Origin: Spizellomyces punctatus DAOM BR117
Lineage: Eukaryota
Assembly (NCBI GenBank): GCA_000182565.2
Contig: KQ257458.1
DNA: 64,000 nt
Reading direction: 5' to 3' (one strand)
The notes below the pieces were generated by a model that saw only the letters and a program-made list of their open reading frames with translations, had not been told where the DNA came from and did not search any database. Position numbers and translations under genes: made by a program. Below are positions 979 to 64,000 of the stretch, piece by piece (positions within the stretch are counted from its first letter, which is position 1; each line of letters begins with the position of its first letter).

Positions 979-3900
979 CTACTGGACCACGGGTAGGGGT
1001 GGAGGAGGTGCGGGTGGTGGTCCTGCCTGCTGAACCATGACAGCAACGTGAGAACCATGACCCAACGAATGTGCACGTTTGCTCAACAGGCCTACCGCTT
1101 CCGACTCGGCCAGCTCTTGCTCGATTCTGCCCAACTCCTCTCGCTGCTGCAAATCAAAAAAAATATATATAAATACATGTTCCTGGACCAACACAACAGA
1201 AACCTTACTTGATCCAACTGGCCCCGCGCTCTTGTCACCAATCCTTCCGCAATGGTCGTCAAGGGATGCATCGTCCCATTATATATCCGAGCGTTATAGG
1301 CAACCAGTTCAAGGTCATCCAGAAAGGCCGCGGCGGTTTTGTAACGGTAGTCCCTGACATCCTGTTTAACATAATTTTAGAACCACCACGACATATTACG
1401 TCAGTACAATAAAACCTACATCTCGAATCTGCTCCAATGTCTTGGGTTTCTTAACAATGTCGTAGTAATCTGGCACTGCCACGGCGGAAACAGGGCGACA
1501 AAATTCGTAGGCTTCGGGTATCGCAATAAGTTCGGTGATGACCCTACCGAGGATGGACGCGAGGTCGACTTCGGGAGCTGCGCGGCGGCGGCCGTAGGAT
1601 TTGGGATGGACCGGTTGGAGGTAGTCTGTGTCGGTCGCTGAGATGGATTGGCGCTTTTTGAGAGGAGGGGTGGAGGATGCTGCTGCGGCAGTTGCTGCTG
1701 CTAGGAGGACTATCGTTGTAGATTGGGAGGTAATAAAGATGGTATGTGAGATTGGGTGTAAGCATGCGTCGTACAGGGAGCGGAGTGGACACCTACGGGA
1801 TGGAGTTCGGATTTTTAACGTCAAAGGTTCATGTCGCCGTTCCTGTTCTTCATCGGAGCCAGCCCCTCGTCTTCGTTTTCCTTTTCTGTCCTCCTTCATC
1901 TTATTTACATGTTCTTGGACTCTGCCATCGTAATGGGGTTAGGACTGGGATCAAGGTCACATTGCAGTGGAAATTACTAACCTTCGCTTTTTCCTCCTCT
2001 TTTCTTCTTCACCTCCGATCCCCGGATATATTTCCCCACTGGATAGCCACGCTTAGTACATATCACACATTCAAATCTCCAACGAGTGGGACACTCACCT
2101 GGTGGTTTCCTCGTGCTCGATAATGGCCCGCTGCCGGAGGTACGCATTGATCACCCTCATATCCGTCACGACCTCAGACCTCTCCTCCTCCTGTCCAAAC
2201 GCGTTCCGAACCTAGCAGGATTATAGCCGCTGAATCAGCCATCATCTGCCGCTACATAATCGTCCAGAAAAGTTTTACCATTCGTCTTATGGTCAATCGC
2301 TTGGTTCGTCCAGCTTGTCCGTAGCTCGTTCCACTCTCGGCAATGGAAGTGGTTTCGTCCTGCTCCAGATCACCAAACAACGCTAATAAAAGATTCCATT
2401 GCGTTACATTGAATACTCGAAAATCATGTCTGTCTTTCATGACTACGGATCTTACATCTTTCTCCTCCAAAGGATGGAGGGGAAGCAGCGCGTTCAGAGG
2501 ATACAAAGCCGTATTCGCGCCATCTTTGGCTTTCCTCATCAAGCTCCATTTGCTGCGGAAGTCCACAGTATCAGAGATCATCCCGAACGTGCTGAGCAAC
2601 TGGCGTTTCCATACGTACCCTCTGTTGAGAACTTAATGTCTCGATATCATCATATTGCTCGTCGTCCTCGGGGGCAGGGNNNNNNNNNNNNNNNNNNNNN
2701 NNNNNNNNNNNNNNNNNNNNNNNNNNNNNNNNNNNNNNNNNNNNNNNNNNNNNNNNNNNNNNNNNNNNNNNNNNNNNNNNNNNNNNNNNNNNNNNNNNNN
2801 NNNNCTCTGCAAAGAGAACCGGTGATAGGACTTTGGTCTATTTTTTTCGCGCTCTACATCAATTGAAAACAAGGATTACTTATTTCTGCAAATGCAAAAT
2901 GTTTGTCATTTTCATCTCACCTAAACGCTCCTCGGCGCTTTCCCCATATCGCAAGAAAGGTTCTTTCATCGAGGCTCTAATGAAACTGAATGCTTCCCCG
3001 CGTCCCGAGGGGTCACCAGGACCGTATAGCTTGATCATACTTTTATTCTAGAGACGGCGATAGCAACTTTTTAAAACTTCATATAATTTCCGGACAGAAA
3101 ACTAGCATAATACCTGACTTGCTTGCACAAAGTTCTTTGTTAAGGTCCACGGTGCCAGCTGCACTTCGATATCCGTATTAATCTCCTCATCATCGTTCTC
3201 TTCATCCATGCCGATATCAGAGTAACCAATATCTCGTAAACGCTGCTGTCCCGTTAGCATACTCTCCATGAGGCAAACCTGTGCGTCGAATGTCAGCTGC
3301 TTAATCACACGTAAATTCCCGTTAGTGGCATGATTACCATTTCGGGAGTGACAAGTCGCCGTATCTCTTCCTCATTTGGGAGTGCAATACCGGGTTTCAA
3401 CTTCCACCAACCAGTATTTTCACCCTTCTTTGCAAACTGAGCAAACTCTTTCAGTCTTTGCCGCAGTTGCGGTTCAGTAAAGCCGGGAAAGGATTTAACA
3501 AGCATTTCGTATCTGAGACGCTTTTGAGGATCTCTTCGCATGTGTCTAAAGGTTACCACCTTCCAGGAAATGATGTTATCATCGCATTGTCATTCGCAGG
3601 TTGACGAGTTCCATATACCTGGAGTCTACCCTTGATAGTTTGTGTAATCCTCCGAGACTGGGGACGAGGGACTTCCTGCAACGGAAAAGTCTGACCGACA
3701 GCAAACAGATGGGGAATTTCGCGGATATAATATTTCGATTGACCCTTGAGCGTGTGTCTGTCGGCCAGGGGTATTAGCCATTAGACATTTTCACGACCAA
3801 CTAGAGAGCATTCACCTAATCACGAGGAAATCTGTTTTGGAGGCTTCCTGTCGAAAGATTGGAGCTCGGAACATGTTGTTGGAGATAGCTTGCAACGTCT

Positions 3901-59445: not shown

Positions 59446-60814
59446 TCACTTGTCTACTTCACCAGGTAATCCGGATTCCTCCCGAACACTCAACACTACG
59501 CTACCCCAATCCAGATCTCCGTGCCCCTTCTCTAGCTGTTTTTCCAAATGTTCGTACATGACGTCGGCGATATGCAGTTTGGTGGAAGTCTCATCAGCGA
59601 GTCTAAATCATAAGCTCAGTTTCAATACTTGACAAAAAATTTAGAAGTACTATTCGAACCTTCGCATCAGTCCGACATCCTTTAAACCGCCTTTAACTGG
59701 AAAACCAGGGTTGCTGGGAGAAATCGCGAGATTGTCTTGGCAGATTCGGGTTCCGTAGCCTTGAATCACAGGGCATGGCAGCATACTGATTGCCACATAA
59801 GCAGACCACGTTGGAAATGAAAAAGAGGTAGTGACACGTACGTGTTAATAAAGTCGAGGACGTTCTGTCTCGACAATCCACTCTTGTCGGCAAGGGTTAC
59901 AGCCTCGGAGATCATTTCGATGCATGAAGCGATGAAGAAGTTGCCGCATAGCTGGATATTCATTCAGAATCATCGTCAACCACCCGGCCTGTTGCGGTTG
60001 ATGCGGCGACGAGCACCTTACCTTTTGCGTAGTGCCAAGATGGGGCTCAGTCCCAACATCAATGATGGCTCTGGTCATGGCTTCAATATAGGGACGGACA
60101 TCCAGCTTCAGGTTTTCCTCTCCCGCGAATGCTCCAACTGTGAAAACCGTTCAACTATGTTTGGCTGAGATCCACCTAGTCATCCCATTGCTTGGCTTAC
60201 CAAGCAATTTTGCCTTTGCAGCATCCGGTCTGCCAAACATTGGACAGGCAGCAAACCGTACTCCATGGCTCTGCATTTTTGCAGCTACTTCCTTGGTGGA
60301 GGCAGGGTAGACTGTGCTGCAGTCAACCCATATCAAGTCCTTCCTGGGCGGGGCGCCTAAAAAACATCAATTCGATTTTTGTGGGGCGCGTTAGGTAGTC
60401 GTGCTCAAGACAGAAACGCACCAGCGACCTCGTCACAAATCTGCTTCAAAGCGGCATCATCAAACATCATCGAAAACAAAACATCACATTCCTTTGCCAA
60501 TGCCTTAGGGCCATTCTTTTCGACTACAGCTCCCACAGACTCTAGCTCAGAGGCTTTGGACAGTGTGCGGTTCCAAACACGCAGTGATCGCCCGGATTTT
60601 TGGAGAAAAGCTTGGAGGTTGAATGCCATGCCTGCATTGCGTTAACCTAATGGATGTGCTAGGAAGACATGTAAAAGAACAAGTCGTACCACTTCCCATG
60701 GCACCTGTAGAAGGACGCTTAGAGGTCCGTCTTGGATCAAGGTACCGACACCATCTCTGGCACGAAATATTTACCCAATCCCATGAATCCCACCTCTTGT
60801 TTGCTGGTCGACAT
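59446..60814 (-). CDS. NAD(P)-dependent beta-hydroxyacid dehydrogenase (3-hydroxyisobutyrate DH / 6PGDH NAD-binding family)
   Basis: VGFMGLG|AMGS|GMAFNL, VWNRTLSKA, VDCSTVYP, CPMFGRPDAA, KLCGNFFIASCIEMISEA, GGLKDV, DWGSVVLSVREESGL. Confidence 0.88.
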
Positions 60815-61106
60815 GATTCTAAAATCGAAGCTCAGACGTTCTGCTACAGAATAAGAAGGATATTTTGAGTGCCAATTGCGAGGACAAAATCAATCATTTC
60901 CAGGAGAATGATGTGAGTCATGGCTGGATGTGTGGTGACGACAGTGACGTTATTTTGGAATACGAGCAAGTGCCCGGCCCCGACGCCTGTAGCGTTCAAT
61001 GGATTTAACATGACAATATCATAAAAGTGTATTTACGGCAGGGATACCGATATCAAACAAAGCTGGTTCTTACGCCTCTGTTAATGCATCAACCATACTT
61101 TGCCTA

Positions 61107-61185
61107 TACGGGAATGAACCATACTTTATCGATTAGGCAAGCCTATACGACAGGGAATGAACCAGCGTAAACTGGTTCGGAAAAG
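61107..61185 (-). ncRNA. Putative Fanzor omegaRNA (scaffold about 61185-61122, plus flank-derived guide)
   Basis: Starts about 24 nt after the Fanzor stop. Minus strand reads CUUUUCC-GAACCAG-UUUACG-CUGGUUC-AUUCCCU-GUCG-UA-UAGG-CUUG-CCUA-AU-CGAU-AAAGUA, giving two hairpins. The 5' part resembles the SpuFz1 scaffold as recalled (UUUUCCGA..CC..GUU...GGUUCA.UCCCUG). 3' boundary uncertain. Confidence 0.7.
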
Positions 61186-63237
61186 TTAACTAACTGCTAC
61201 TAGACAATCTAAGCTACCAAAGGGACATGTCTACTAAAAATAGCCGGTCTAACACCATCATCTAAATATGATTTCATGATTGTTACCATATTAGACGTGC
61301 TTAATTTGTCCCGATTCCAGTAACGGTAAGTGCATCCTTGCTCTATGCAGTTTGGGTTGGTACAACCTAGCAAGCCATGCACTTTTTCACTACGTCCTTT
61401 CTGACGCTGCCAGGGTCTCGAGTGTGGTCGTATCTTGAATCCCTTTTGCAGATGATCACCTGATAAGCATCTTGGACATATTGATGAGGTTCGATATTCA
61501 TCTAATAGGAAGCAATCGATGCGATTGCATTTGAAACAATTCCGCCATCCAGTGGTTTTCGATGATATCTGGTATTTTTGGGTATGCCCACCATCGCTCC
61601 AATCACCCATTACTACAGCAAAACTACTACCAAAGCATTTCCTCATATTAGATATCAGCTTTGCTTCGGTTCTTTGGGTGTTCATGTAGGTATGCCATCT
61701 CCATCTAGTATGGGCGGGATGCGAATAAAAGTCCTTCAAGGGTGCATCATTGTCGTGGCGCCATGACAGGTAATGAATGTAGCTATCGAGATTCATCGTT
61801 TTATGTGAAGGCGCTGCAGACTCGATGACATCAATGCCATTCTCACGCTTCATTGCTTCGCGGGATTTTTTGAACCTCCTGCTTCCAATCTCTTTGGTTC
61901 TTTGCATGGAAGTATAGCAAAACGTACGCCTCTTTTGAAGATCCCGACAGTATAGTATATCGCGCTTATTGGGATCAATGGTGACGACGTTGGATGCGCT
62001 GCGACAGGCCGTAAGATTATTCTCAATATATTGACTTTTGATATCTGCTTCAATCGCCTGTTCTGAGTTGCGATGCTTGTGTCTGCCATATTTTGCCGCA
62101 TCTGGATGCTTCAGGCAAACTGACATGGAGGTCCCATCCGTCGTTATTGATCCGTCAAATGCCATTCCACTACGCGTCGTGAACGCCTTACTGCCAAGAT
62201 TGCAAACACGCAACCACAAGTCCATTTTGTCAACAGAGTCGTATTCTCGCCATGAGACTTTTAGCACATGTTGATACAGAATCATAGTATCAATGCGAAC
62301 ATGGGATTGGATAAACGATCTTCGCAATGGGATGGCATTAAACAAGGGCAGGCCACATCGTTCGAATAAACGGGATAATGCACAGTGAGACGGAAAAAAT
62401 GACAGCGGATCGCATGCTACAAGATATGCGAGTTTCCCTTCTTTTCCTATGACTCGATCAAGCAAAATATTCCAAATGTCTTCTAATAATGCACTTTCCA
62501 AATTGCTCAGGTCTAGATCATCGGTTTGTGGAATGTCGTCTAATAAGAACAATTGTTTCAGATATCGCAATCTGGCGAAAAATGACATTCTCTCCGCTCC
62601 CAATAGTCTTTTCTGCTGGTTCTTGACGTCTAATCGATAATTGATGAATCTAACTAGCATTTTGACAAAATGCTCTTGGACATTGACTTTAATGTTTGTT
62701 ATGACACTGGTGGTGAGGTAGTTGATGGACTGTTGATCATATTTCAGGTTGGGCCGAGTAAAACCCACAACATTGCAGTACCGATCAATATGGGGCACGA
62801 GGATATCACGGCAATCTTTTTTCGCCATGTTGCCTGGCTGCCAAGCTGCACCTTTATTCAGCAGGTAAAGCGTCGCCTCCATGACAGTTTCATTGATAAT
62901 CGGAAAGTGTGGGCTGGATAGGATGTAGAACTTGAGTGCATGAGTAGCGTGGGCTGCTAGTTCATGGACGATTTGGATATAATTTTGAATGCGATCTCAG
63001 TAGGTATCATTTGCAGCAAAAGCCTTTTCAAAAGATGTCTTGTGACATGAATGGAGGATAGCAGGTTGGTCGACTTTCTGCTTCTTCTTCGGAGGCATCG
63101 TTGAAGATGAAGACTGTGGGAAAATGGGCAACTCATCTTTTAAATACTGGATAGATCTATTATTCATTAGACTAGATATGGGTTTATAGATATTGGACAA
63201 CATTTCATTGGTCGCTTGGGATGAAAATTTTCGATAG
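61124..63237 (-). mobile_element. Non-autonomous Fanzor-carrying DNA transposon (about 2.1 kb), candidate TA target duplication
   Basis: Minus-strand left end CATA|CTATCGA (63241-63231) and right end TCGATAAAG|TA-TG (61132-61120) form a short imperfect inverted repeat with TA on both sides. No transposase inside. Ends are inferred. Confidence 0.55.
61209..63098 (-). CDS. Fanzor1: Fanzor1 RNA-guided RuvC endonuclease (TnpB-derived OMEGA effector); intronless, 629 codons, interrupted by one TGA at codon 34 (62997-62999); residual 557-aa ORF at 61209-62882
   Basis: N-terminal NLS MPPKKKQK. SITTDGTSMSV. RuvC-I VTIDPNKRD (D at 61974-61976), VVMGDWS, RuvC-II LLDEYRTS (E at 61497-61499), zinc finger CPRC...GCTNPNC, RuvC-III WNRDKLS (D at 61308-61310). 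Colinear with SpuFz1 as recalled from memory. Confidence 0.93.
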
Positions 63238-64000
63238 TATGTCATGTGACCATGGGTTATTTATTGTGGATCACTGAAGGGGGTCAGGGGTATTCATTAG
63301 GTAGCTTTCAGTGGAGGCATTTACCAGTGTCTTTTGGGCAAGATTTGAGGATTTTGGATAGTCATTGTTTACATTCCATGCCTGTACCAGCGTCGATCCT
63401 GGCATCCCATGTCTGAATCTTCAGGCCCGACGCGTAGCTAAGCCACCCGCCTCACCCAAACCATCGAGCGCCGTCATCACATTAGAATTGAATGCGGTAG
63501 CTCGAAAGATGTGATTGACCAGTCTAATCACCTATATCATGATGTGCATGCGTTCTACTGCTGCCATAGAACATGTTTTATTTTTGGAATATTCTGTTTT
63601 CGAACATTCCGTTGAGCATGTTTTCCTTCTTCTCGTTCCCCATAGCGCGTGCTCTGCTAGCGTGACGTCACCAACAAGTTGCTGTTATTTAACAGACTTG
63701 AAGCTCTCTGGTACAAAATATTTGTATCCCAGCCGATTTCAACAGCTCCTAAAATTTGGTACTTTACTTTTATATTAGCTTGAACCTCTATGACTACTCA
63801 TGACCCTCAAATGATGTCTTCGTCAGAGTCTATTTCTACGCTGCTGAGATGTCCTCCTTGGTTACTGATAGGAGAGCCCACTGACTGCATCTGAGTTTGA
63901 GTCTGGCCTCCAGGAGCTGACGGCTGACCATCTTTGCTTTTTTTACTGCTACTATTTTGACCGTTGTTGTTACGACCGACACGTGCGAACAGCAGCGACA

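What the first reader, a model, noticed from the sequence alone, without database searches (positions are those of the whole stretch)
61107..63241. Eukaryotic RNA-guided nuclease module: Fanzor1 gene with adjacent omegaRNA in a compact transposon
Seen: an intronless minus-strand frame in an otherwise intron-rich genome. It encodes an NLS (PPKKKQK), a complete RuvC D-E-D triad (IDPNKRD, LDEYRTS, WNRD) and a CPRC/CTNPNC zinc finger, and is followed directly by a structured non-coding segment. Established: Fanzor1 proteins are TnpB-related OMEGA endonucleases whose omegaRNA overlaps the element's right end and takes its guide from the flank; SpuFz1 of Spizellomyces punctatus is the prototype. Inference: this is a clearly diverged SpuFz1 relative with its own scaffold, and so a candidate new programmable nuclease once codon 34 is repaired.
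Basis: partly seen in the sequence, partly recalled or inferred. Interest (0 to 1): 0.92.

Follow-up and report, generated by a model that had tools for sequence, protein, structure and literature searches.

The report
Broken divergent Fanzor1 copy, known fungus
This is a real Fanzor1 RNA-guided nuclease transposon with its guide-RNA scaffold, but it lies in the same fungal genome that gave the prototype SpuFz1, carries a stop codon, and is a divergent extra copy of an already catalogued family.

Summary
A minus-strand frame (63098..61209) encodes a 629-codon Fanzor1 with one in-frame TGA at codon 34. It has an MPPKKKQK N-terminus, all four active-site residues and all four zinc-finger cysteines. 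It matches the solved SpuFz1 structure chain end to end (E 3e-255).

The window is Spizellomyces punctatus DAOM BR117 itself. A 316-aa NCBI model, SPPG_09290, is 100% identical to part of this frame. Two papers have already catalogued Fanzor loci in this genome: 3 families (Bao & Jurka 2013), and 42 loci plus 134 ghost elements (Saito 2023).

This copy is the odd one out:
- It is 60.8% identical to SpuFz1 and sits outside the clade of the 17 other S. punctatus copies.
- It breaks only 1 of 47 family-invariant columns and has one stop and no frameshift, so it was under selection until recently.
- Two arginines that read the first TAM base pair are replaced: R96G and R291W.

A 64-nt two-stem scaffold follows the gene (z -4.2). 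Its first 35 nt are 34/35 identical to transcribed sister loci, so that part is not "its own". This locus itself is nearly silent in the one RNA run laid. The finding is an ordinary member of a known kind, of modest interest.

The parts
63238..63241 (-). CATA at the left end: CA flank plus the terminal TA. It equals the SpuFz1 TAM and the 'conserved CA upstream of the 5' IR'.
   Evidence: Sequence read. TAM and CA rule from Saito 2023 passages. One locus only, so CA could be chance (1 in 16).
63231..63239 (-). Left terminal motif, the only part clearly mirrored at the right end.
   Evidence: About 9 of 11 letters are shared with the reverse complement of 61122-61132. The 40-nt alignment is no better than shuffles (740 of 2000 reach it).
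63099..63230 (-). Leader between the left end and the start codon.
   Evidence: The ATG at 63245 lies outside the left end, and SpuFz1 starts at the MPPKKKQK-type Met.
61209..63098 (-). Fanzor1 coding frame: 629 codons plus TAG, 60.8% identical to SpuFz1 (380 of 625 aligned).
63075..63098 (-). MPPKKKQK basic N-terminus, shared with SpuFz1 and its sisters. The NLS role is inferred.
   Evidence: The likeness to a classical basic NLS is recalled, not tested.
62997..62999 (-). In-frame TGA (codon 34). It aligns to Arg39 of SpuFz1.
   Evidence: Seen unchanged in the X1 contig and X16 reads.
62832..62834 (-). Gly89 in place of the TAM-reading Arg96 of SpuFz1.
   Evidence: Of 32 relatives filled at this column, 23 have R, 4 have K and 5 have G. 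All five with G are Fimicolochytrium.
62250..62252 (-). Trp283 in place of the TAM-reading Arg291 of SpuFz1.
   Evidence: W occurs in 0 of 44 relatives filled at this column.
61974..61976 (-). RuvC Asp375 (= SpuFz1 D383). Asn377 (= N385) follows.
   Evidence: Role from Saito 2023, section 10.
61497..61499 (-). RuvC Glu534 (= SpuFz1 E541).
61347..61478 (-). Zinc-finger stretch, CPRC ... CTNPNC (= SpuFz1 C548, C551, C586, C591).
   Evidence: 4 of 4 Cys identical.
61308..61310 (-). RuvC Asp597 (= SpuFz1 D606).
61122..61185 (-). Predicted omegaRNA scaffold, 64 nt: 5' UUUUCC, stem-loop 1 (61178-61159), 6-nt linker AUUCCC (61158-61153), stem-loop 2 (61152-61127) and a tail ending in TA.
   Evidence: Fold (z -4.18). 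The plan matches Saito 2023, section 10: U5-C6-C7, C19-G20 in loop 1, and a 6-nt linker running from A to C. 61185-61151 is 34/35 identical to sister loci.
61107..61121 (-). Predicted 15-nt guide (the flank after the terminal TA), if the right end is at 61122.
   Evidence: By analogy with the 14-15-nt guide of SpuFz1. No read evidence for this locus.
61096..61121 (-). 26-nt echo of the scaffold's own 3' 43 nt (61164-61122). All 26 letters are identical once two gaps (4 and 13 nt) are allowed. It overlaps the predicted guide.
   Evidence: (D1, D17). Origin unexplained. It leaves 61096 open as an alternative right end.

Best explanation
This is a copy of an SPu-type Fanzor1 transposon in the Spizellomyces punctatus DAOM BR117 genome. 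It measures about 2.12 kb from terminal TA to terminal TA (63239..61122).

Shown:
- It encodes a TnpB-like, RuvC-plus-zinc-finger nuclease, 60.8% identical to SpuFz1.
- A 64-nt scaffold with two stems and a linker follows 23 nt after the stop codon.
- The gene belongs to a separate, older lineage than the main SPu-1/SpuFz1 family.
- It stayed under purifying selection for most of that separate history.
- It is now interrupted by a single nonsense codon (an Arg position read as TGA).

Inferred:
- When intact, the protein worked like SpuFz1. It bound the RNA made from the right end and used the 14-15 nt of flank after the terminal TA as guide. It then cut double-stranded DNA next to a TAM with the D375/E534/D597 site.
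- Both arginines that read the C:G pair of CATA are replaced, so its TAM preference at that position probably differed.
- The nuclease is now most likely not made in full.
- The scaffold's 5' tail, stem-loop 1 and linker, where most described protein contacts lie, are almost identical to those of transcribed sister loci. The right end could therefore still serve as a ghost-like guide locus for the intact SpuFz1 paralogues. That last step is a guess, at about 0.3.
For: Identity:
- phmmer against PDB chains gives SpuFz1 (8gkh) at E 3.2e-255 over residues 48-678 of the read-through. PpFz1 scores 3.3e-47 and GtFz1 2e-08.

Genome of origin:
- P0007 is 'SPPG_09290 [Spizellomyces punctatus DAOM BR117]', 100% identical over 54% of the ORF.
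- 19 further rows are named S. punctatus. None is more than 60% identical by BLASTP.

Catalytic and structural residues:
- Active-site residues: 4 of 4 identical to SpuFz1.
- Zinc-finger Cys: 4 of 4.
- Scaffold contacts: 18 of 25.
- Guide/heteroduplex contacts: 9 of 13.

Separate lineage (39 rows):
- The 17 other S. punctatus copies form one clade (SH-aLRT 99).
- The window copy lies outside it and outside two unnamed relatives (ena1, ena4).
- Its end branch is 0.47, against a median of 0.094.

Selection:
- If that whole end branch were neutral, 17-20 stops would be expected. P(at most 1) is below 1e-6.
- All 17 gap columns against SpuFz1 keep the frame.
- Only 1 of 47 columns invariant in 22 other full-length relatives is broken, R to C394.
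- The 3 half-share variants of DNA run X16 inside the CDS are all synonymous.

Scaffold:
- The fold has z -4.18.
- In RNA run X15, 38 of 38 reads with the first mate on the - strand over 61176 carry the other letter and run on into unlike sequence on both sides of 61151-61185. This shows transcribed sister loci with the same 35-nt core.
- Xu 2024 passages say the region beyond SL1 is little constrained. That fits the shorter, different stem 2 here.

Element ends:
- The element length and the CA-TA ... TA ends fit SPu-1 as described: about 2,100 bp with TA duplications, and CA upstream of the 5' IR.
Against: - Terminal inverted repeats of 30-33 nt, reported for SPu-1 copies, are not detectable. 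Only about 9 of 11 terminal letters match, and the 40-nt alignment is at shuffle level (740 of 2000).
- No read shows that this locus makes its own omegaRNA. Of the 2 reads in the other orientation at 61176, 1 carries the window's letter. Mean RNA depth over the ORF is at most 0.75, with about 6% of run X15 read.
- Seven Arg residues that touch nucleic acid in SpuFz1 are changed: R96, R260, R291, R315, R419, R481 and R531. This may mean decay rather than a new specificity.
- The 26-nt echo leaves the true right end, and so the guide, uncertain.
- The comparison with the metagenome relative L002 is by eye. Its downstream fold is not better than shuffles: z -0.19, 78 of 200.
- Depth at the stop codon in X16 is only about 4-5 and X16 holds two haplotypes. 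An intact second allele is therefore not excluded.
- The local Pfam copy gives no Fanzor/TnpB hit at E up to 1.
Confidence: 0.85

Rival explanations
1. The gene is still functional. The TGA is either a polymorphism of one haplotype or strain, or the protein is made from a downstream Met (the 557-aa ORF from 62882, or the start of the NCBI model).
For: - DNA run X16 shows half-share variants inside and outside the element, so it holds two haplotypes. Its depth at the stop is only about 4-5, and a variant needs 3 reads to be listed.
- Everything else in the frame is intact, and 1 of 47 invariant columns is broken.
- All 3 X16 variants in the CDS are synonymous.
Against: - Two data sets (the X1 contig and X16 reads) show no other letter at the stop.
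- A start at Met73 would remove the basic N-terminus and the WED residues H21, T22 and K25, which hold the first guide bases in SpuFz1.
- RNA depth over the ORF is near zero in X15.
Confidence: 0.1
2. It is an old, fully dead relic. Protein and scaffold are both decaying, and the folded segment has no present role.
For: - Long IRs are not detectable.
- The locus is nearly silent in X15.
- Seven nucleic-acid-contact arginines are lost and one family-invariant Arg is Cys.
- It has the lowest G+C of any 2.1-kb stretch in the window: 0.427 against a minimum of 0.431.
Against: - There is one stop and no frameshift, where 17-20 stops are expected under neutrality for the whole branch. Even a quarter of the branch being neutral gives P of about 0.04-0.08.
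- 46 of 47 invariant columns are kept.
- The scaffold core is 34/35 identical to live sister loci.
- CpG is not depleted: observed/expected 0.90 against a window median of 0.93.
Confidence: 0.15
3. The right-end region was copied from a main-family element by gene conversion or recombination. On this reading the scaffold is a graft onto a diverged gene, not co-evolved with it.
For: - The scaffold core is 34/35 identical to sister loci, while the protein is only about 61% identical.
- One X1 contig shares 61141-61170 exactly and then diverges.
- The 26-nt echo shows that the right end has been rearranged.
Against: - Strong constraint on stem-loop 1 alone can explain the contrast. Xu 2024 passages say SL1 is the shared interface and the rest is free to vary.
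- No sister-locus DNA was available to look for a conversion tract boundary.
Confidence: 0.2

Closest known systems
SpuFz1 (SPPG_07727, S. punctatus Fanzor1; PDB 8gkh; Saito et al. 2023, PMC10432273)
   Same: - Same genome.
- Same length class: 629 against 638 codons.
- Same MPPKKKQK start.
- Same D/N/E/D active site and zinc finger.
- Same gene-then-scaffold order.
- Same two-stem scaffold plan with a 6-nt linker.
- CATA at the left end and a terminal TA.

   Different: - 60.8% identity, against about 82% among the SpuFz1 copies.
- Outside their clade.
- One nonsense codon.
- R96G and R291W at the TAM-reading positions.
- Scaffold of 64 nt rather than 75 nt, with a shorter stem 2.
- Three loop-1 letters named in the paper (G17, U18, G22) do not fit.
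- Long IRs not detectable.
SPu-1 and the two other Fanzor1 families of S. punctatus (Bao & Jurka 2013, PMC3627910)
   Same: An element of about 2,100 bp with a single ORF and TA at both ends. Table 1 lists three Fanzor1 families for this species.
   Different: SPu-1 copies are about 92% identical to their consensus and have 33-bp TIRs. This copy fits neither point. It may be one of the other two families, but their sequences are in additional files that I could not open.
Ghost Spu-1 elements (Saito et al. 2023)
   Same: An omegaRNA scaffold with no working nuclease gene beside it. The scaffold differs from the canonical one in stem 2.
   Different: Here the nuclease gene is still present and almost whole. 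Use of this scaffold in trans has not been shown.
PpFz1 and GtFz1 (Xu et al. 2024, PMC11423790) and ISDra2 TnpB
   Same: - The same RuvC-plus-zinc-finger core.
- An omegaRNA with a conserved first stem-loop.
- TAM-dependent cutting.

   Different: These are much more distant: E 3.3e-47 and 2e-08. They have other TAMs and other scaffold lengths.

Membership tests
Fanzor1 (eukaryotic TnpB-like OMEGA nuclease) | RuvC active-site residues (SpuFz1 D383, N385, E541, D606) | tested here: met
   4 of 4 identical in the pairwise alignment. Roles taken from Saito 2023, section 10.
Fanzor1 (eukaryotic TnpB-like OMEGA nuclease) | Zinc finger (CxxC ... CxxxxC) between the second and third RuvC motifs | tested here: met
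   4 of 4 Cys identical to SpuFz1 C548, C551, C586 and C591.
Fanzor1 (eukaryotic TnpB-like OMEGA nuclease) | Full-length homology (WED, REC, RuvC, NUC) to a solved Fz1 | tested here: met
   One stretch of the 8gkh chain, residues 48-678 of the read-through, E 3.2e-255. No structure was predicted here.
Fanzor1 (eukaryotic TnpB-like OMEGA nuclease) | Profile-HMM membership (Pfam) | tested here: inconclusive
   The local Pfam-A gives no Fanzor/TnpB hit at E up to 1. Relatives carry a precomputed PF26935, whose name the tool does not show.
Fanzor1 (eukaryotic TnpB-like OMEGA nuclease) | Scaffold-like folded segment at the 3' end, reaching the right end of the element | tested here: met
   Two stems plus a 6-nt linker, z -4.18. 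34/35 identity of 61185-61151 with transcribed sister loci. Rfam has no matching family: 0 hits.
Fanzor1 (eukaryotic TnpB-like OMEGA nuclease) | omegaRNA made from this locus and bound by the protein | tested here: inconclusive
   In X15 (about 6% of the run read), the reads on the core come from sister loci: 38 of 38 carry the other letter. Binding cannot be tested here.
Fanzor1 (eukaryotic TnpB-like OMEGA nuclease) | Guide- and TAM-dependent cutting of double-stranded DNA | not testable with these tools
   Needs expression and a TAM library assay.
Fanzor1 (eukaryotic TnpB-like OMEGA nuclease) | Uninterrupted reading frame | tested here: not met
   TGA at 62999-62997.
SPu-1 / SpuFz1 family proper | High identity to the family: about 82% between proteins, about 92% of DNA to the consensus | tested here: not met
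   60.8% identity to SpuFz1. At most 61% to any of 17 S. punctatus copies.
SPu-1 / SpuFz1 family proper | Placement inside the S. punctatus clade | tested here: not met
   Outside the 17-row clade (SH-aLRT 99) and outside ena1 and ena4. The long branch (0.47) makes the exact place unsure.
SPu-1 / SpuFz1 family proper | 30-33-nt terminal inverted repeats, TA duplication, CA before the left end | tested here: inconclusive
   CA-TA on the left and TA on the right are present. The repeats match over only about 9 of 11 letters, and 740 of 2000 shuffles score as well over 40 nt.

The most novel reading that the evidence does not exclude
This lineage may be a second, naturally diverged Fanzor1 subtype of S. 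punctatus that was active until very recently, or still is on the other haplotype. On this reading it has lost the arginine pair that reads the C:G of CATA, and so uses a relaxed or different TAM. It would still use the same stem-loop 1 as SpuFz1, so that guide RNAs are shared between the two nuclease lineages and the ghost loci.
Probability: 0.15. Interest if true: 0.5.

Novelty: already known. Interest (0 to 1): 0.22.

Why it matters
Little changes for the field. Fanzor1 of S. punctatus is the prototype, and its loci have been counted in two papers.

Three small points are of use:
- The public gene model SPPG_09290 (316 aa, with a spurious spliced tail) mis-describes a nearly whole 629-codon Fanzor1 that has a nonsense codon.
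- The copy is a natural variant in which both C:G-reading arginines of the TAM pocket are replaced, while 46 of 47 family-invariant columns are kept. That makes it a cheap lead for TAM engineering of SpuFz1.
- The protein has diverged by 39% while the 5' tail, first stem-loop and linker of the scaffold differ by one letter from sister loci. This fits the published view that this part is the shared, constrained interface.

Tried and rejected
- Whole-genome search for copies and ghost elements: no genome is held for this window. Within the window there is no second copy.
- Pfam: no Fanzor or TnpB family at E up to 1.
- Rfam: 0 matches at E up to 1 over 60800-63500.
- Long inverted repeats: not found by the repeat finder or by local or global alignment.
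- Canonical omegaRNA letters: not in the main text of Saito 2023 (0 occurrences of six motifs). Supplements are closed, so the scaffold was compared only with the numbered nucleotides in section 10.
- Metagenome scan with a 23-nt piece of the scaffold core: 0 hits.
- Protein scan of metagenomes: 24 loci.
  - Only L002/L003 and L005 have DNA after the stop. L002 and L003 are one locus seen twice.
  - L005 shows no like motif.
  - L002 shares a U-run-CC followed by a hairpin with ACGC in the loop, judged by eye. Its fold is at shuffle level.
  - This was not enough for a covariation test, so no RNA model was built.
- Sequencing runs:
  - No RNA holder was listed by the index.
  - Run X21 laid 0 records.
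  - The strand of the sister-locus RNA could not be called (see Noticed in passing).
- CpG-deamination decay, suggested by the Arg-to-TGA and Arg-to-TGG changes, is rejected as a general signal. CpG observed/expected is 0.90 against a median of 0.93, and 39 of 120 windows are lower.
- Earlier notes of this scan: nothing on this genome or this sequence. The 8 notes listed under the search words concern other genomes and did not move my reading.
- Full-text search for SPPG_09290: 0 papers. No SPPG identifiers in the main text of Saito 2023.
- Not run: structure prediction, fold search and complex prediction. The full-length match to a solved chain made them unnecessary. Also not run: the 'shorter' and 'longer' protein searches, so the claim of a lone lineage holds only for proteins of 306-975 aa.
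Full report
**What is in the sequence**

On the minus strand a frame runs from ATG 63098 (MPPKKKQK) to TAG 61211-61209. The clean ORF behind the stop is 557 aa (62882..61209).

A Met further upstream (63245) is in frame, but it lies outside the left end of the element. SpuFz1 and its sisters start at the MPPKKKQK-type Met.

**Identity of the protein**

Read through with X at the stop, the protein matches the SpuFz1 chain of PDB entry 8gkh in one stretch, residues 48-678, at E 3.2e-255. PpFz1 follows at 3.3e-47 and GtFz1 at 2e-08. The alignment runs straight through the stop, which sits opposite Arg39 of SpuFz1. This is a nonsense change, not an intron or a shift of frame.

A pairwise alignment gives 380 identical of 625 aligned positions (60.8%). 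It has 17 gap columns, all of which keep the frame.

Residues named in Saito et al. 2023 (section 10, read whole) compare as follows:
- Metal-binding residues D383, N385, E541 and D606: all kept.
- Four zinc-finger Cys: all kept.
- Scaffold contacts: 18 of 25 kept.
- Guide/heteroduplex contacts: 9 of 13 kept.
- TAM contacts: 4 of 6 kept.

The two changed TAM contacts are R96G and R291W. According to that section, these are the two residues that bond to the C and the G of the first base pair of CATA.

The local Pfam copy finds no Fanzor or TnpB family at E up to 1. The match rests on the direct comparison with solved chains and database relatives.

**Where the window comes from**

The protein search returned 47 relatives among 4673 candidates, restricted to lengths of 306-975 aa.
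- One of them, P0007, is named 'SPPG_09290 [Spizellomyces punctatus DAOM BR117]'. It is 100% identical to the ORF over 54% of it.
- Its sequence starts at an internal Met and ends in a short unrelated tail. The public model is therefore a truncated, mis-spliced reading of this very locus.
- P0002 (SPPG_07727, 638 aa) matches the SpuFz1 part of the 8gkh fusion chain wherever the query aligns to both.

The window is therefore the genome from which the prototype was taken. This genome's Fanzor content is in print:
- Bao & Jurka 2013 (PMC3627910, passages seen) found the first Fanzor there. They describe SPu-1 as about 2,100 bp with 33-bp TIRs, TA duplications and 17 full-length copies. Their Table 1 lists three Fanzor1 families for the species.
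- Saito et al. 2023 (PMC10432273, passages and section 10 seen) report 42 loci with full-length (19) or partial genes and 134 ghost elements. They give about 82% identity among SpuFz1 proteins, 30-nt IRs and a conserved CA before the left IR. The scaffold is 75 nt with a 14-15-nt guide, and the TAM is CATA.

Neither main text names loci. A full-text search for SPPG_09290 found 0 papers.

**How this copy differs**

Tree, 39 rows:
- Rows were the window plus 38 relatives. I left out the locus's own model P0007 and eight short rows: P0030, P0034, P0036, P0037, P0040, P0043, P0046 and P0047.
- The 17 other S. punctatus copies form one tight clade (SH-aLRT 99).
- The window copy falls outside it, and outside two unnamed relatives that are the clade's next neighbours.
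- Its end branch is 0.47, against a median of 0.094.
- The tool warns that the place of so long a branch is unsure. No relative is more than 61% identical.

The long branch is not the mark of a long-dead gene:
- From the locus's own codons, 5.7-6.7% as many stops as replacements are expected under neutrality. That is 17-20 stops if the whole end branch were neutral, with P(at most one) below 1e-6. It is still 4-5 stops if a quarter of the branch were neutral, with P about 0.04-0.08.
- Of 47 columns that are invariant in 22 other full-length relatives, the copy breaks one, R to C394. This is no more than relatives with far shorter branches break.
- The three half-share variants that DNA run X16 shows inside the coding frame are all synonymous. 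Of two further variants seen only in an X1 contig, one is synonymous and one is R519Q.

I conclude that this is an old, separately evolving lineage, selected for function until recently.

CpG is not depleted: observed/expected is 0.90 against a window median of 0.93. The idea that methylation-driven decay produced the Arg-to-TGA and Arg-to-TGG changes has no general support.

Against a simple 'repair and use' view:
- Seven arginines that touch nucleic acid in SpuFz1 are changed.
- Xu et al. 2024 (PMC11423790, passages seen) report that a conserved REC-loop arginine at the TAM duplex is essential in GtFz1.
- The passages do not give its SpuFz1 number, so I cannot say whether it is R96.
- Gly at position 96 recurs in all five Fimicolochytrium relatives filled at that column. 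Trp at 291 occurs in none of the 44 relatives filled there.

**Is the stop real?**

One X1 contig piece covers 61999-63382 with no other letter. DNA run X16 covers all 30 bins and lists no other letter at the stop. Depth there is only about 4-5, though, and a variant needs three reads to be listed.

X16 also shows half-share variants both inside the element and beyond its left end. The organism sequenced there therefore holds two versions of the locus. An intact second version is unlikely but not excluded.

**The non-coding segment**

The scaffold starts 23 nt after the stop, and 61186-61122 folds into:
- an 8-bp stem-loop (61178-61159);
- a 6-nt linker, AUUCCC;
- a second, bulged stem-loop (61152-61127);
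- a short tail ending in TA.

The fold is -19.7 kcal/mol with z -4.18, and 0 of 200 shuffles are as good.

Comparison with the SpuFz1 scaffold as described in words:
- It fits the overall plan: two stems and a linker, U5-C6-C7 at the 5' end, C19-G20 in loop 1, and a 6-nt linker from A to C with C at its fourth place.
- Three loop letters (G17, U18, G22) do not fit.
- Stem 2 is about 10 nt shorter.
- The scaffold is 64 nt, against 75.

The reads add an unplanned comparison with sister loci:
- In RNA run X15, 59 of the 69 laid reads lie only partly on the stretch.
- All 38 reads with the first mate on the - strand over 61176 carry the other letter.
- They run on into unlike sequence before 61151 and behind 61185.
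- They therefore come from other loci whose 35-nt core (5' tail, stem-loop 1, linker) differs from this one by a single letter. That change keeps the pair as G-U.
- One X1 contig shares 61141-61170 exactly and then diverges.

The first part of the scaffold, where most described protein contacts lie, is thus shared with live sister loci, and only stem 2 is this copy's own. This agrees with the remark in Xu 2024 that the region beyond SL1 is little constrained.

For this locus itself the run gives almost nothing. One read carries its own letter at 61176, and mean depth over the ORF is at most 0.75, with about 6% of the run read.

Rfam has no match.

A metagenome relative (L002, 45% identical protein) has a U-run-CC followed by a hairpin with ACGC in the loop, 13 nt after its stop. 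Its stem letters differ from those here. This is one comparison made by eye, and its fold is at shuffle level.

**Ends of the element**

The left end reads CA-TA (63241-63238) and the right end closes with TA (61123-61122). That gives 2,118 bp from TA to TA, in line with SPu-1.

The two ends mirror each other over only about 9 of 11 letters. A 40-nt alignment scores no better than 740 of 2000 shuffles. The element borders are therefore inferred by analogy.

The 26 nt that follow the right end (61121-61096) repeat the last 43 nt of the scaffold letter for letter once two gaps are allowed. The next 8 nt resemble the start of that unit again. This echo overlaps the predicted 15-nt guide (61121-61107) and leaves 61096 open as an alternative right end. 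I have no tested explanation for it.

**Verdict**

The locus is an inactivated, divergent extra copy of a family whose prototype and whose loci in this very genome are published.

Its points of interest are modest:
- a natural change of the TAM-reading arginine pair on a background that otherwise looks selected;
- a scaffold core shared with sister loci despite 39% protein divergence;
- a wrong public gene model.

I rate it 'already known', with interest 0.22.

Noticed in passing
window 61096-61121 (and 61088-61095): Directly after the predicted right end lies a 26-nt echo of the scaffold's own last 43 nt. All 26 letters are identical once two gaps of 4 and 13 nt are allowed. The start of a third unit follows. 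It could be a slipped or rearranged right end. It makes the guide of this locus resemble the linker region of its own family's scaffold.
   Followed up: partly
window 61151-61196, RNA run X15: Reads from sister loci cover the scaffold core almost only in one orientation: 38 with the first mate on the - strand, against 2 on the + strand, at 61176. Reads over 60990-61070, next to a minus-strand gene, have the opposite orientation (10.3 against 0). Under the usual stranded-library rule the sister-locus RNA would then be antisense to the omegaRNA. However, 67 of 69 laid reads are first mates, so the library type is unclear and the strand cannot be called.
   Followed up: no
window 61668, 61755, 62460, 63214, 63232, 63290, 63328 (DNA run X16): Other letters at roughly half share occur inside the element and beyond its left end. 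The sequenced culture therefore carries two versions of this locus: two haplotypes, a strain mixture or a larger duplication. The three variants inside the coding frame are synonymous.
   Followed up: partly
window 59800-60814, minus strand: The next gene downstream encodes a 6-phosphogluconate-dehydrogenase-type NAD-binding domain (PF03446). The domain is split over at least two ORFs, so the gene has introns. Its start lies about 300 bp from the Fanzor right end, and RNA reads begin near 61070.
   Followed up: partly
public model SPPG_09290 (P0007) over window ~61930-62825: The NCBI gene model for this locus is 316 aa. It starts at an internal Met and ends in a 16-residue tail from another frame after a predicted splice. 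It hides the fact that a nearly whole 629-codon Fanzor1 frame is present.
   Followed up: yes
window 61107-63241: The element has the lowest G+C of any 2,135-bp stretch sampled in the window: 0.427, against 0.431-0.517 for 120 sampled stretches.
   Followed up: no
window 2680-2804: A run of 125 N, which is an assembly gap.
   Followed up: no
L002 and L003 (metagenome loci): Two contigs from different metagenome records carry the same Fanzor1 locus with identical flanks over 5.6 kb. The protein is 45% identical to the window's and has a long basic N-terminal extension. It probably comes from one soil chytrid seen twice.
   Followed up: partly
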